In this document: positions 30,358-34,282 of the stretch, in pieces
How the letters are laid out: every line of letters starts with the position of its first letter
Numbering within the stretch: position 1 is the stretch's first letter
Sequence record: PP355091.1
DNA: 64,000 bases
Source of the DNA: Escherichia phage 235Ecol030PP
Reading direction: 5' to 3' (one strand)
Position numbers and translations under genes: made by a program
The notes under the pieces: generated by a model
What the model was told of the DNA's origin: nothing
The model's input: only the letters and a program-made list of their open reading frames with translations
Databases searched by the model: none

Positions 30358-30571
30358 ATTTGACTTCCTCACCAGTACATAAATCATATTCAACTAAACG
30401 AATGGGTTCATGAATGCCATATCCCTGAACAGAAATTTCTGTCGTAGGATAAATTCCATCAATATCACCCATATTCCACGCTTCATTAAATTGCTGTTCG
30501 CCTGAATTACTAAACCACTCGGCGAAAGCATTTAGCACATCTTCAGAACCTTCAATAATTATCTTTGCCAT
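30350..30571 (-). CDS. Hypothetical protein (vs.x region)
   Basis: 73-aa ORF. Confidence 0.45.
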   Translation of the reverse strand: MAKIIIEGSEDVLNAFAEWFSNSGEQQFNEAWNMGDIDGIYPTTEISVQGYGIHEPIRLVEYDLCTGEEVKYD

Positions 30572-30933
30572 TACAAACTTTCGGTGAAGGTACGAGCGAT
30601 AACGTCGCGCTGCTGTTCCGGAGTCAGAGAGTTAAAGCGAACTGCATAACCGGATACACGGATGGTCAGCTGCGGATATTTTTCCGGATGCTTAACTGCA
30701 TCTTCCAGAGTTTCACGACGCAGAACGTTAACGTTCAGGTGTTGACCACCTTCAATTTTAACTGTAGGCTGTTGCTCAATTTCAATTTCACGGGCATGCA
30801 AACCATAGAAAATTTCTGGGTCTACAAAAGAGTCCTCTTTAAAGGTTTTAGAAACGATAATTCGTGCTTGAATACCATCTTCAAAATAAATAGTACCTTT
30901 GTGTGTGCCTTCAAGAATTTGATATGCTTTCAT
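30571..30933 (-). CDS. Autonomous glycyl-radical cofactor (GrcA/YfiD-like)
   Basis: 120 aa; C-terminal [25 protein letters not shown] contains the glycyl-radical signature RVSGY. Confidence 0.8.
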
Positions 30934-30940
30934 ATAAACC

Positions 30941-31270
30941 TCAATTAGAAAATAAATTTATCCAAGATTGTTCTTTAATTAAAAATGGCTCAGAATCATA
31001 TGCCATTAAACTCTGTGTGATTAGTCCTTTAAAAGGCCCATCAATAAATTCCATGGTAAAATATGGAATTTTATTCATTAGCCGTGCATTAGGAGCCGTG
31101 CACAAAACTCTGCATCCTTTGAATACGCCTTTTTGTAATTTGTATTGCTTAGGATAAAATTCGCTCAAAATGTTATTTTTTGCCAAAATTTCAAAATGAT
31201 TCACCAATTTATTTTTAATAGTTTTTGGTGAAAAATAAAGATATTCGAAAAGCTGAGTGTCTGTCATCAT
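30941..31270 (-). CDS. Hypothetical protein (start at MMTDTQ, overlapping upstream stop)
   Basis: Track ORF 30941-31321; ATGA overlap with stop of 31267-31806. Confidence 0.4.
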
Positions 31271-31806
31271 TGCATTCCGATTACGAAAAACTGTGGACGA
31301 GTAATACCACCAATGCAACATTTAATATTACAGCAGCAGTGTACAGTGTCAATATGGACACTATAAATCTTATCCATATCAGGAGATTTGACAGGCTCAT
31401 CAATTATATATAAAATTCGCGAAAGCTTTAAACCTCTGAACTTGCTTCCTTTATTACCGATAAAACTGCGCACAGAATCAGTAAATAAACGAAAACGTAT
31501 ATCATCATTAGAATAACGCGAAAATTCCTTTTTAATGTTATTTGCAGAAATTTTAGCGTAAGCTGAAGTATTAGAAAGAACAATAACTGTTCCGCCATCA
31601 TACAACCAATTAGCAGCAAAGTTAGTCACAGCAATTGATTTACCGGATTGACGCCCACCATCTAGTCGAAGTGTGCAATACTGTTTAAGTAAGTCTTCAA
31701 ATGGCGGGATATATTCGTTTTTACAAATTTCTTCTACTCTAGCATCAGAATGGTGTGTAAAAGCATTCATCAGGGATAGATAAGGACCAGTTAAAAATGT
31801 TCTCAT
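31267..31806 (-). CDS. P-loop NTPase with Cys-rich C-terminal tail, hypothetical
   Basis: 179 aa; Walker A GGRQSGKS, Walker B ILYIIDEP; C-terminus HCCCNIKCCIGG. Confidence 0.45.
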   Translation of the reverse strand: MRTFLTGPYLSLMNAFTHHSDARVEEICKNEYIPPFEDLLKQYCTLRLDGGRQSGKSIAVTNFAANWLYDGGTVIVLSNTSAYAKISANNIKKEFSRYSNDDIRFRLFTDSVRSFIGNKGSKFRGLKLSRILYIIDEPVKSPDMDKIYSVHIDTVHCCCNIKCCIGGITRPQFFVIGMQ

Positions 31807-31971
31807 TTCTTCTCTCTAAATTTGGGCCATTCCGTGGCGCATGAATTGTCCATTTCTGTATTTACCCATTACCGCACTTGGGCTCGACCTTATTACAGGT
31901 TGGCGGGAATCCCTCACAGAATCATGAGGTCCAGCTTGTTCCCATTTTATTTGAATGTAAATAGATCTGAG

Positions 31972-32550
31972 TTAGGAATTACGGGCTGCATTAGCAACGG
32001 CGTAAGCGTACTGGACATTAGCGTCTTTAAACGTACCTTTAGAGGTATCTATTTCTGCCTTAAAGCCGCCTTTAGCCATAGCATCGGCAAATTCTTTACG
32101 GAAAGCCATTGCATCAAGACCTTTCCATGATGATTTATGCTTGGCAAATTCAAGACCAGCGTAGTTGACAGCCTTAGCTAATTTATTATCAATAACCCAT
32201 TTACCGGCTTTAGGCACAAACTTCGGGCCTTTTTGTTTAGAGAACAGTTTTAAATTCCAGCGACGAAGGTCACTGTCGGCTTTAACAAAAGCTGCGTCTA
32301 AGTTACTAGCAACAACATCTTCAATATGAGCAAATTTAAGTCCGTCAACTTCAATATTTAGATCGTTACGCCAGCGAAGTCCTTCCCAAGCGAAGGCTTT
32401 AAAGTCGGAAGCCTTTGTAGCTAAGTACCGTTCAATAGGAGCTGTTTTAGGGTCAAAGCCGTTTCCCGATCGGTAGGTCCACTCATCTTTATTAATGCCT
32501 TTGGCCTTTACTATAGAAGCTTCGGCAATAAATTCTTGATAGGTTTTCAT
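31972..32550 (-). CDS. ipIII: Internal protein III-like head protein (capsid targeting sequence MKTYQEFIAEA)
   Basis: 192 aa; N-terminal MKTYQEFIAEA is the classic T4 internal-protein targeting/cleavage leader; early promoter upstream. Confidence 0.75.
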   Translation of the reverse strand: MKTYQEFIAEASIVKAKGINKDEWTYRSGNGFDPKTAPIERYLATKASDFKAFAWEGLRWRNDLNIEVDGLKFAHIEDVVASNLDAAFVKADSDLRRWNLKLFSKQKGPKFVPKAGKWVIDNKLAKAVNYAGLEFAKHKSSWKGLDAMAFRKEFADAMAKGGFKAEIDTSKGTFKDANVQYAYAVANAARNS

Positions 32551-32578
32551 GTGTTTCCTTGTTTGTTTTGATAGAGTA

Positions 32579-32608
32579 ATTATACCATATTAATACTTAA
32601 GCGTAAAC
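32579..32608 (-). promoter_or_regulatory. T4-type early promoter upstream of ipIII
   Basis: -35 GTTTACG (32602-32608), 17-nt spacer, -10 TATAAT (32579-32584). Confidence 0.55.
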
Positions 32609-32611
32609 CGT

Positions 32612-32872
32612 TTAAGCTTTACCGCCAGAAATAATTCCGAAGTTGTTAAAATCATATCCAATATCGTCAACATCTACTTTAGGACTTGCTACAACATAAG
32701 CAATTTCACTACATTTTGCACAGGTGTTGATTTCTTTACCATCGCCACCTAAGAAAGAATACCCATTACGTTTTAATGAGCCAAAGTCTTCCGCATCATC
32801 AATGAAAGCTTTAACTTTAAATTTAGAACCTTTGGCATCTGCTTCAACGATAAATTCTTGATACATTTTCAT
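32612..32872 (-). CDS. Internal-protein-like gene (IPII position), CTS leader MKMYQEFIVEA
   Basis: 86 aa; leader matches IP consensus; rest unrelated to ipIII. Confidence 0.6.
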   Translation of the reverse strand: MKMYQEFIVEADAKGSKFKVKAFIDDAEDFGSLKRNGYSFLGGDGKEINTCAKCSEIAYVVASPKVDVDDIGYDFNNFGIISGGKA

Positions 32873-32878
32873 TTTTCC

Positions 32879-32982
32879 TTAGTAAATTGATTTACCAAAG
32901 TATTTGTACCAAGTCGGACGTTGATCAATTTTTTCATCTAAGCGTGCTTGATTTATCGCAATGGACGCTTCGGACGGGTCAT
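32879..32982 (-). pseudogene. denV: denV (endonuclease V, pyrimidine-dimer glycosylase) remnant: start codon plus C-terminal about 34 codons, out of frame
   Basis: Promoter, GGAGGAAATT and ATG ACC CGT (MTR) intact, stop after 9 codons; shifted frame encodes [32 protein letters not shown] matching recalled T4 DenV C-terminus. Confidence 0.7.
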
Positions 32983-33009
32983 AATTTCCTCCAAGTAGTT
33001 GATGAATGT

Positions 33010-33039
33010 ATAGTATCAAAACCCTTGGAGGAAGTAAAC
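33010..33039 (-). promoter_or_regulatory. T4-type early promoter (denV promoter)
   Basis: -35 GTTTACT (33033-33039), 17-nt spacer, -10 TACTAT (33010-33015). Confidence 0.55.
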
Positions 33040-33041
33040 AA

Positions 33042-34282
<1,241 letters not shown>

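What the first reader, a model, noticed from the sequence alone, without database searches (positions are those of the whole stretch)
31267..31806. P-loop NTPase with an unusual Cys-rich C-terminal tail
Walker A (GGRQSGKS) and Walker B (ILYIIDEP) are clear, but the C-terminus HCCCNIKCCIGG is unusual and could be a metal-binding or lipidation site, or the result of a frameshift. Its stop overlaps the start of the next ORF.
Basis: seen in the sequence. Interest (0 to 1): 0.3.

Follow-up and report, generated by a model that had tools for sequence, protein, structure and literature searches.

The report
T4 vs.8 ATPase and RNA leader
The flagged gene is the ordinary, intact copy of phage T4's uncharacterised gene vs.8 (a small terminase-like ATPase), its cysteine run is a fast-changing loop made by triplet-repeat slippage, and the surprising thing is a conserved folded RNA just upstream that T4's annotation reads as protein.

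Summary
The window is a T4-like phage (Tequatrovirus). The ORF at 31267-31806 (minus strand, 179 aa) is the ortholog of T4 vs.8 (98.9% identical; PHROG 1488, E 4e-79). Walker A, Walker B and the ATGA stop/start overlap with vs.7 are all real. The Cys run is not the C-terminus. It sits 12 residues before it, in a low-confidence variable loop, followed by the family-wide strand FFVIGMQ in the same frame, so there is no frameshift. Cys count in this loop ranges from 0 to 6 across orthologs. Among close relatives it changes by point mutation and (CTG)n slippage (T4 HYCC, window HCCC, phage G8 HCCCC). A metal or lipid site is therefore not supported family-wide. A zinc or redox site limited to the T-even clade (conserved H..H.CC) is not excluded. 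The closest relative of the fold and motifs is the ATPase core of the large terminase (hhalign against T4 gp17: 80% probability, E 1.3e-5). Function is unknown.

Following the upstream sequence showed that the 40-aa N-terminal extension annotated in T4 vs.8 is non-coding. It is a roughly 120-nt pseudoknotted RNA (31824-31943), more conserved than the protein. It lies upstream of vs.8 in 39 of 41 loci, also occurs in three unrelated virulent phage groups, and is absent from Rfam 15 and from bacterial genomes.

The parts
31267..31806 (-). vs.8 ortholog CDS (179 aa plus stop): a small stand-alone ASCE P-loop NTPase
   Evidence: ORF list and sequence. It is 98.9% identical to T4 Vs.8 residues 41-219, matches PHROG 1488 with E 4e-79, and has the T4 gene order e / IP genes / vs.8 / vs.7 / vs.6.
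31636..31659 (-). Walker A / P-loop GGRQSGKS (residues 50-57), of the terminase type RQxGK[ST]
   Evidence: D49, G51, R52, Q53, G55 and K56 are invariant in 68 sequences. The motif aligns to T4 gp17 SRQLGKT.
31393..31416 (-). Walker B ILYIIDEP (residues 131-138), preceded by the conserved R124-G125
   Evidence: L132, E137, P138 and G125 are invariant. The stretch aligns to gp17 'VRGNSFAMIYIDE'.
31306..31341 (-). Variable Cys-rich loop HCCCNIKCCIGG (residues 156-167; Cys at 157, 158, 159, 163, 164)
   Evidence: The loop lies between helix 144-158 and the last strand. The 10-residue block 161-170, which covers the second half of the loop, has mean pLDDT 61, the lowest in the model. The loop is hypervariable in sequence and length across the family, with 0-6 Cys.
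31331..31339 (-). (CTG)3 microsatellite that encodes the Cys run
   Evidence: The DNA alignment shows T4 CAC TAC TGC TGT, window CAC TGC TGC TGT, and G8 CAC TGC TGC TGC TGT.
31270..31290 (-). Conserved C-terminal beta-strand FFVIGMQ (residues 173-179), the true C-terminus
   Evidence: G177 and Q179 are invariant, and F173, F174 and V175 are at least 90% conserved. The model has a strand at 172-177.
31267..31270 (-). ATGA stop/start overlap of vs.8 and vs.7 (translational coupling)
   Evidence: Sequence. Among 41 vs.8 loci the junction is ATGA in 26, TAATG in 10 and a 7-nt overlap in 2; in the other 3 no ORF of at least 50 aa was found at the junction.
30941..31270 (-). vs.7 ortholog (109 aa), the conserved downstream partner ORF
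   Evidence: PHROG 2049, E 6e-54; T4 and G8 annotation. The structure model failed (pLDDT 52).
31824..31943 (-). Conserved pseudoknotted RNA element immediately 5' of vs.8. Its parts are stem H0 (31939-31943 with 31905-31909), stem P2 (31901-31903 with 31866-31868), the invariant core (31869-31899), and a T4-type 3' hairpin GCCACGGAAUGGC (31826-31838).
   Evidence: The DNA here is more conserved than the protein. Covariation is seen, and pairing tests. The covariance model scores 101 bits with a single hit in the window. The element is upstream of vs.8 in 39 of 41 loci. There is no Rfam 15 match.
31816..31917 (-). Spurious 33-codon ORF (MRDSRQPVIRSSPSAVMGKYRNGQFMRHGMAQI*). It is the remnant of the 40-aa 'N-terminal extension' annotated in T4 vs.8 and is non-coding.
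   Evidence: In the window it ends in a stop and is out of frame with vs.8. M1 of MRTFLTG is the conserved start in all orthologs. No frame has a consistent ORF across the RNA classes.

Best explanation
The ORF is the intact ortholog of bacteriophage T4 gene vs.8. It encodes a 179-aa single-domain ASCE P-loop NTPase whose nearest recognisable relatives are the N-terminal ATPase cores of large terminase subunits. It shares their Walker A RQxGK[ST], their RG motif followed by a hydrophobic strand and DE, and it ends at the strand that carries the coupling motif in terminases. It lacks the lid and nuclease domains.

Shown: identity with vs.8, motif conservation, fold class, an intact reading frame, and a conserved stop/start overlap with vs.7.

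Inferred: it binds and hydrolyses a nucleotide (K56/S57 for phosphate and Mg, E137 as the catalytic carboxylate, R52, R113 and R124 as candidate arginine fingers or sensors). It probably acts as an oligomer, together with the co-translated Vs.7, as an accessory nucleic-acid-directed ATPase.

The cysteine run is not a terminal tail. It is a lineage-specific, rapidly evolving surface loop between the last helix and the conserved terminal strand. The extra cysteine in this phage arose by a TAC>TGC change that created a perfect (CTG)3 repeat, which has expanded further by slippage in phage G8.

Translation starts at the ATG at 31806. The sequence upstream is not protein but a conserved structured RNA.
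For:: the window is colinear with Tequatrovirus genomes, and the protein is 98.9% identical to T4 Vs.8 residues 41-219.

PHROG 1488 (E 4e-79), with a weaker match to PHROG 2, terminase large subunit (E 1.4e-5).

hhalign of the 68-sequence profile against T4 gp17 gives probability 80% and E 1.3e-5, aligning Walker A, RG and Walker B.

the model has pLDDT 87. Foldseek hits are RecA-like domain 1 of SF1/SF2 helicases and the TerL ATPase domains (7ks4, 4znk, 5hd9), plus many ~150-180-aa uncharacterised proteins of large phages.

the C-terminal strand is conserved in the same frame in all orthologs, while Cys content of the loop ranges from 0 to 6.

in-frame CTG-repeat variation among T4, the window and G8.

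stop/start overlap with the next ORF in 38 of 41 loci.

M1 is conserved, and the upstream frame is broken in the window.
Against: No biochemical or genetic data on Vs.8 were found in the searchable literature.

The terminase relationship is below Pfam's threshold (Terminase_6N 12.7 bits against a cut-off of 22). Foldseek TM-scores are at most 0.5, so 'terminase-derived' is a best guess within the ASCE NTPases.

The CC pair (residues 158-159) and H151 are conserved throughout the T-even clade down to about 60% identity. This could reflect a real, clade-specific function of the loop.

The partner Vs.7 could not be modelled.
Confidence: 0.85

Rival explanations
1. In the T-even clade the loop (H151-x4-H156-C-C-C-x3-C-C here; H-x5/6-H-C-C in relatives) forms a small zinc-binding or redox-sensitive site that regulates or stabilises the ATPase.
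For: The CC pair and H151 are retained in all orthologs of at least about 60% identity, and a third or fourth Cys usually follows 3-4 residues later.
Against: The motif is absent from the rest of the family, which has 0-2 Cys at non-equivalent positions. The ligand count and spacing change among near-identical phages through slippage. The second half of the loop has the lowest model confidence (mean pLDDT 61 for residues 161-170).
Confidence: 0.2
2. The Cys-rich end results from a frameshift or sequencing error, and the true protein continues in another frame.
For: None found. The only irregularity is a 3-nt (in-frame) repeat-length difference between phages.
Against: The downstream 12 residues, including FFVIGMQ and the stop, are conserved in frame in all of 68 aligned and more than 40 locus-derived orthologs. 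The ATGA overlap with vs.7 is conserved.
Confidence: 0.01
3. The cysteines are lipidation (S-acylation or prenylation) sites that anchor the protein to the membrane.
For: Only the local density of cysteines.
Against: The cysteines are not at the C-terminus (no CaaX position) and there is no N-terminal lipobox. They are not conserved. By general knowledge, S-acylation machinery of that kind is not known in E. coli.
Confidence: 0.02
4. Vs.8 is not an enzyme but a terminase-ATPase look-alike. It would act by binding, for example as a decoy or modulator for host factors or defence sensors that recognise the terminase ATPase fold, or as a regulator of the packaging motor.
For: It has a terminase-like motif set but no lid or nuclease domain. 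It lies in a region rich in host-takeover and anti-defence genes (background knowledge). A distant sub-branch has lost the Walker lysine (RRSGHT).
Against: In the vs.8 family proper, the catalytic residues K56 and E137 are invariant, which argues for retained catalysis. There is no direct evidence for any binding partner.
Confidence: 0.1

Closest known systems
Bacteriophage T4 Vs.8 (NP_049732; PHROG 1488), a hypothetical protein
   Same: It is the same gene: 98.9% identity over 179 aa, the same neighbours (vs.7 and vs.6/GrcA downstream), and the same ATGA overlap.
   Different: T4's record starts 40 codons further upstream. That stretch is interrupted in the window and is a conserved RNA, not protein. 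T4 has HYCCNSKCC where the window has HCCCNIKCC. In T4, denV lies upstream of the RNA; in the window an ipIII-type gene does.
N-terminal ATPase core of large terminase subunits (T4 gp17; Pfam Terminase_6N; P74-26 TerL 4ZNK/7KS4; phi29 gp16 5HD9)
   Same: Walker A with R-Q-x-G-K-[ST], an RG motif a few residues before the Walker B strand, hhhhDE, and an ASCE fold.
   Different: It has only about 130 residues of core plus two N-terminal helices. It has no lid subdomain and no nuclease domain. It scores below Pfam's cut-off. The genome carries a separate bona fide terminase (background knowledge; T4 gp17).
RecA-like domain 1 of SF1/SF2 helicases (e.g. RadD, RecD, SLFN11 helicase domain)
   Same: These are the best Foldseek matches by E-value, with the same strand order around the P-loop.
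   Different: There is no second RecA-like domain and no helicase motifs beyond I and II. TM-scores are at most 0.5.
For the upstream RNA: hairpin-loop-to-3'-tail (H-type) pseudoknotted small ribozymes and riboswitches such as pistol or preQ1/SAM-II classes (comparison from memory only)
   Same: The architecture is similar: a stem whose loop pairs with sequence 3' of a highly conserved core of about 30 nt.
   Different: No Rfam 15 family matches at E <= 1, and the core sequence is different. Self-cleavage or ligand binding was not tested.

Membership tests
P-loop NTPase, ASCE division | Walker A GxxxxGK[ST] after a beta-strand | tested here: met
   GGRQSGKS at residues 50-57, following strand 45-48. 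G51, G55 and K56 are invariant.
P-loop NTPase, ASCE division | Walker B hhhhD followed by a catalytic Glu | tested here: met
   ILYIIDE at residues 131-137 on strand 131-137. E137 is invariant.
P-loop NTPase, ASCE division | RecA-like alpha/beta fold | tested here: met
   The AF2 model has pLDDT 87, and Foldseek probability is up to 1.00 for helicase and terminase ATPase domains, although TM-scores are at most 0.5.
P-loop NTPase, ASCE division | Nucleotide hydrolysis | not testable with these tools
   This needs biochemistry.
T4 Vs.8 family (PHROG 1488) | Full-length profile match and synteny (upstream of vs.7 and vs.6) | tested here: met
   E 4.3e-79 over residues 3-179 against profile positions 2-177 of 177; synteny.
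Large terminase subunit (Pfam Terminase_6N / PF03237) | Score above Pfam's gathering threshold | tested here: not met
   12.7 bits against a cut-off of 22, E 0.098. hhalign against gp17 gives only 80% probability.
Large terminase subunit (Pfam Terminase_6N / PF03237) | C-terminal RNase H-like nuclease domain and ATPase lid subdomain | tested here: not met
   The protein ends at residue 179, right after the strand that follows Walker B.
Cys/His metal-binding motif (zinc-finger-like) | Ligand residues conserved in position across the family | tested here: not met
   The loop has 0-6 Cys. Only the T-even clade keeps the CC pair.
Cys/His metal-binding motif (zinc-finger-like) | Bound metal | not testable with these tools
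   This needs metal analysis.
C-terminal lipidation signal (CaaX-type) | Cys at the fourth position from the C-terminus | tested here: not met
   The last Cys is residue 164 of 179.
Any Rfam 15 RNA family (for the upstream element) | Covariance-model match | tested here: not met
   No match at E <= 1 in the window region or in 7 related loci.
Structured non-coding RNA (generic) | Compensatory base changes that maintain helices, and no conserved ORF | tested here: met
   95.3% of cells paired against 83.8% in shuffles, 31 double-change cells against 8.9, 0 of 500 shuffles as high; 10 of 12 pairs show double changes across 39 sequences (this alignment was fitted to the structure). RNAalifold found the long-range pairing independently; no common ORF.

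The most novel reading that the evidence does not exclude
The stretch that T4's reference annotation translates as the first 40 residues of Vs.8 is a previously undescribed, pseudoknotted RNA family of about 90-120 nt with a 31-nt near-invariant core (CCUGUAAnAAGGUCnnGCCnnAGnGCGGUAA).

It is exchanged among strictly virulent enterobacterial phages of at least four unrelated groups: Tevenvirinae, Vequintavirinae, Schitoviridae and ~45-kb phages. It was not found in bacterial genomes.

In T4-like phages it is the fixed 5' leader of the vs.8-vs.7 operon. It may act there as a ligand- or factor-sensing regulator, or as a ribozyme or processing element. Elsewhere it behaves like a free-standing small RNA gene, next to tRNA clusters or with its own terminator.
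Probability: 0.5. Interest if true: 0.75.

Novelty: already known. Interest (0 to 1): 0.35.

Why it matters
For the flagged ORF, the result is mainly a clean-up. It is a known but uncharacterised T4 gene, intact, with a hypervariable Cys loop that should not be over-interpreted. The likely true start is 40 codons downstream of the T4 reference annotation.

Classing Vs.8 as a minimal terminase-type ATPase that is always co-translated with Vs.7 gives a concrete handle for studying one of T4's remaining unknown early-region genes.

The unexpected value lies next door. A deeply conserved, covarying RNA sits in the best-studied phage and has been hidden inside a mis-called coding region. It is shared with unrelated virulent coliphages and is absent from Rfam. 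If confirmed, it is a new phage RNA class whose conserved core implies a specific ligand, protein partner or catalytic activity.

Tried and rejected
- **Literature.** Searches for vs.8, NP_049732, T4p119, PHROG 1488 and for printed core sequences returned nothing relevant. The T4 genome review PMC150520 is not held.
- **Solved-structure sequence search.** A profile search gave only marginal hits (TraD-like coupling protein, E 0.04).
- **NCBIfam and PADLOC.** No meaningful hits.
- **Vs.7 structure.** The prediction failed (pLDDT 52), so no fold search was run.
- **Single-sequence folding of the leader.** Uninformative (z = +0.58).
- **tRNA/tmRNA scan.** Negative.
- **Host-RNA mimicry.** The idea came from shared words such as GUGCGGUAA (RNase P RNA), GCGGUAAU (16S 530 loop) and CAAGCGG. 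It was tested by local alignment against E. coli rnpB, 16S and 23S with shuffles and was not significant (z <= 2.3), so it was rejected.
- **Conserved micro-ORF under the RNA.** Rejected: 9 of the 18 representatives have no in-frame start codon in the one frame that stays open across the core in every class.
- **Promoter reading of the A-rich tract 5' of the RNA.** Considered but unresolved.
- **vs.8-like protein downstream of the RNA.** The gene downstream of the RNA in an rV5-like phage is not vs.8-like.
- **Alignment issues.** MAFFT alignments across RNA classes misplace the 5' stem, so cross-class counts rely on a covariance-model alignment. The search for related loci with the most divergent protein alignment failed.

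Full report
**What the window is and what the ORF is.** The region carries T4 lysozyme e, nudE, internal-protein genes with the MKTYQEFIAEA capsid-targeting leader, and a GrcA-like glycyl-radical protein, all on the minus strand. The 1.1 kb around the finding matches 794 phage records, nearly all Tequatrovirus and relatives, at up to 99% identity. In T4 itself the order is e, ipIII, ipII, denV, vs.8, vs.7, vs.6. In the closest relative, phage G8, and in the window, denV is absent and an ipIII-type gene precedes vs.8. The ORF at 31267-31806 (minus strand) translates to 179 aa. These are 98.9% identical to residues 41-219 of T4 Vs.8 and match PHROG 1488 ('unknown function') end to end at E 4.3e-79.

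**Checking the observation.** Walker A (GGRQSGKS, residues 50-57), Walker B (ILYIIDEP, residues 131-138) and the string HCCCNIKCCIGG (residues 156-167) are present as described. The stop overlaps the next start...GGA ATG CAA TGA with ATG ATG ACA..., an ATGA overlap at 31267-31270. The one error is that the Cys-rich string is not the C-terminus. [12 protein letters not shown] follows it.

**Is the tail conserved, and is there a frameshift?** I collected orthologs with two database searches and aligned 68 full-length members down to 30% identity. Invariant residues include D49, G51, R52, Q53, G55, K56 (P-loop), G125, L132, E137, P138 (Walker B region), Y148, G177 and Q179. The last strand, F-F-V-I-G-M-Q, is conserved in every sequence in the same frame as the Cys run, and again in orthologs taken from independently fetched loci. 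That excludes a frameshift.

The segment between Y148 and P171, by contrast, is the most variable part of the protein in both sequence and length. It contains 0 Cys in Yersinia phage MHG19 and many Klebsiella phages, 1-2 at non-equivalent positions in most genera, and 3-6 only in the T-even clade. Among near-identical phages the run itself differs: T4 HYCCNSKCC, window HCCCNIKCC, G8 HCCCCNIKCC. At the DNA level this is CAC TAC TGC TGT, then CAC TGC TGC TGT, then CAC TGC TGC TGC TGT. A point change made a perfect (CTG)3 repeat, which then gained a unit in G8.

In the AlphaFold model (68-sequence alignment, pLDDT 87, pTM 0.87) the loop begins at the end of helices 144-153/155-158 and runs to strand 172-177. 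The 10-residue block 161-170, which covers its second half, has the lowest confidence in the model (mean pLDDT 61). The simplest reading is a tolerant surface loop. The conserved H151 and CC pair within the T-even clade leave room for a clade-specific metal or redox site, to which I give about 0.2.

**What kind of NTPase is it?**
- Pfam gives only sub-threshold hits: AAA_14 at 15 bits and Terminase_6N at 12.7 bits.
- PHROGs adds the large-terminase family at E 1.4e-5.
- A profile-sequence comparison with T4 gp17 gives 80% probability and E 1.3e-5. It aligns DGGRQSGKS with NLSRQLGKT, and FRG-x5-LYIIDEP with VRG-x4-MIYIDEC. One family member carries a precomputed Terminase_6N hit.
- Foldseek against the PDB returns RecA-like domain 1 of SF1/SF2 helicases and the isolated TerL ATPase domains of P74-26 and phi29, all with TM-scores of at most 0.5.
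- Foldseek against viral models returns many uncharacterised ~150-180-aa proteins of T4-like, Vi1-like and jumbo phages.
- An exhaustive profile search of 1.84 billion representative proteins finds only 72 clusters at E <= 0.001, all small stand-alone proteins. The distant ones keep GRQ[ST]GK[ST]...IIDEP...GxQ. One sub-branch has replaced the Walker lysine (RRSGHT).

Vs.8 is therefore best described as a minimal, stand-alone ASCE ATPase of the terminase lineage. It is not a terminase, because it has no lid or nuclease domain and scores below the family threshold. Catalysis is inferred from the invariant K56 and E137. The substrate and biological role are unknown, and I found no literature on the gene.

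The next ORF overlaps or abuts the vs.8 stop in 38 of 41 independent loci: ATGA in 26, TAATG in 10 and a 7-nt overlap in 2. Co-translation with the Vs.7 family is therefore a conserved feature. Vs.7 could not be modelled.

**The start codon and what lies upstream.** T4's record begins vs.8 40 codons earlier. In the window that stretch ends in a stop and is out of frame. In all orthologs the alignment starts at the MRTF/MK(Y)L methionine, preceded by a purine-rich Shine-Dalgarno-like stretch. Yet the ~130 nt upstream are nearly identical between T4 and the window. Large blocks stay invariant in genera whose Vs.8 proteins are only 37-56% identical (MHG19, Jiaodavirus, Gaprivervirus, Tegunavirus), whatever gene lies further upstream.

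A 31-nt core, CCTGTAANAAGGTCNNGCCNNAGNGCGGTAA, occurs once in the window (31869-31899; none expected by chance). Elsewhere I found it in:
- 31 IMG/VR loci and 24 metagenome loci;
- none of 185,579 bacterial and archaeal species genomes;
- none of 5,426 complete E. coli genomes.

Besides T4-like phages it occurs in three other groups:
- Vequintavirinae, for example EmilHeitz, in an intergenic gap next to the tRNA cluster;
- the N4-like Klebsiella phage KpCHEMY26, in a 1-kb stretch with no annotated gene next to a tRNA cluster;
- ~45-kb phages such as EcoPhCCP1, just after the endolysin gene and followed about 95 nt later by a strong intrinsic terminator.

**Evidence that it is a structured RNA.** Around the invariant core the flanks differ between classes but keep complementarity.
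- **Stem H0:** GGGAA/UUCCC, AAAGG/CCUUU, AAAGC/GCUUU, UGAGUG/CACUCA, UGAAUG/CAUUCA, UGUGUAU/AUACACA, GAGGG/CCCUC, GGGG/CCCC, GGAAC/GUUCC.
- **Stem P2, closing the core:** CCA/UGG, CCCU/AGGG, CUGG/CCAG, CGCG/CGCG.
- **Pairing P3, between the H0 loop and the 3' tail:** CUCCGG/CCGGAG, CCAGC/GCUGG, UGAGG/CCUCA, AAACCG/CGGUUU, CACAC/GUGUG, CGGUU/AGCCG. P3 makes the fold a pseudoknot.

Register-free cognate versus non-cognate tests give:
- H0: 5.5 against 3.7 consecutive pairs;
- P2: 3.6 against 2.8 consecutive pairs;
- P3: -6.9 against -4.2 kcal/mol.

None of 20,000 permutations reached the observed value in any of the three tests. In the window's own T4-type copy, P3 is only CUG/CAG and is not supported on its own.

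RNAalifold, run on 12 non-T4-type Tevenvirinae copies, found the P3 pairing by itself. On that MAFFT alignment the full model has 95.3% of cells paired against 83.8% in shuffles, and 31 double-change cells against 8.9 (0 of 500 shuffles as high). Slid controls give 26-49% paired.

A covariance model built from 9 sequences scores the window copy at 101 bits, finds a single copy in the 64-kb window, and recovers all classes. On its alignment of 39 distinct sequences, 10 of 12 pairs show changes on both sides and 93.1% of cells are paired against 73.6% in shuffles. This alignment is fitted to the structure, so it leans towards it.

No reading frame has a consistent ORF: the only frame open across the core in all classes lacks an in-frame start codon in 9 of 18 representatives. 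Rfam 15 has no match at E <= 1 in the window or in seven related loci.

The fold of the invariant core itself is unresolved. The working model is an ACCU/AGGU hairpin. It is supported by one compensatory GCCU/AGGC in a diverged tandem copy and contradicted by one ACCC variant. An RNAalifold alternative is not excluded.

**Link to vs.8.** In 41 vs.8 loci fetched through the protein alone, the covariance model finds the RNA on the same strand upstream of vs.8 in 39. In most it ends about 45-55 nt before the start codon; in four it lies about 450 nt upstream. Two loci hold tandem copies. In one phage of this kind, fetched separately (L023), the intervening sequence begins with an internal-protein gene. 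In T4-like phages the element is therefore the conserved leader of the vs.8-vs.7 operon, with an extra invariant 3' part (AUGGAC..AUG.GCCA.GGAAUGGCCC) of unknown role. In other phage families it is independent of vs.8; the gene downstream in an rV5-like phage is unrelated. Its function is unknown. I tested and rejected sequence mimicry of RNase P RNA and of 16S and 23S rRNA.

**Verdict.** The flagged feature is real but ordinary. It is the intact ortholog of a known, uncharacterised T4 gene. The 'unusual tail' is a hypervariable, slippage-prone loop, and no frameshift is present. The finding as given rates low interest. The adjacent RNA, which T4's annotation masks as coding sequence, is the part worth following up.

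Noticed in passing
window 31824-31943 (minus strand); core 31869-31899: A pseudoknotted RNA of about 120 nt sits immediately 5' of vs.8 and is more conserved than the protein. It is upstream of vs.8 in 39 of 41 loci and is also present in Vequintavirinae, Schitoviridae and ~45-kb phages. It is absent from Rfam 15, from 185,579 bacterial and archaeal species genomes, and from 5,426 E. coli genomes. T4's annotation translates it as the first 40 aa of Vs.8.
   Followed up: yes
window 31807-31971, compared with T4 (L001 4914-5356): denV (endonuclease V), which lies between ipII and vs.8 in T4, is absent here and in phage G8. An ipIII-type internal-protein gene (31972-32550) directly precedes the RNA and vs.8. 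Internal-protein gene content in this block differs between phages (three IP-like ORFs at 31972-33338).
   Followed up: partly
window 31331-31339 (minus strand): A (CTG)3 coding microsatellite differs in unit number between close relatives: it is interrupted in T4 and has 4 units in G8. This gives 2, 3 or 4 consecutive cysteines.
   Followed up: yes
window 30571-30933 (minus strand): This is the vs.6 ortholog, a 120-aa autonomous glycyl-radical cofactor (GrcA/YfiD-like; Pfam Gly_radical, E 2.5e-18) with the C-terminal RVSGYAVRF motif.
   Followed up: no
L067 (Klebsiella phage KpCHEMY26) 1368-2372; also L014, L018, L024, L026, L029: In N4-like phages the RNA sits in a ~1-kb stretch with no annotated gene and only short ORFs (<70 aa), next to a tRNA cluster. 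In the related class-B contigs (including the KpCHEMY26 contig L026) it is flanked by a repeated ~25-nt motif (AGTGCTCTTTCCGTTGTGACGAAA...). This may mean several small RNAs or phage-specific promoters.
   Followed up: no
L022 5080-5305, L081, L091: Some T4-like phages carry two tandem copies of the RNA upstream of vs.8. The second copy is diverged (CCUGUAAUAAGGCCAGUCCGCGACGGUAA).
   Followed up: partly
Public annotations of vs.8 orthologs: Orthologs are variously labelled 'endoribonuclease RegB', 'terminase large subunit', 'DNA packaging protein' or 'hypothetical protein'. The RegB label looks like an annotation-transfer error from the neighbouring gene.
   Followed up: no
Distant family members P0110, P0117, P0120, P0122, P0129, P0141, P0142: A sub-branch of small Vs.8-like proteins has the Walker A lysine replaced (xRRSGHT) and Walker B reduced to hhhD. 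These are possibly inactive or mechanistically different.
   Followed up: no
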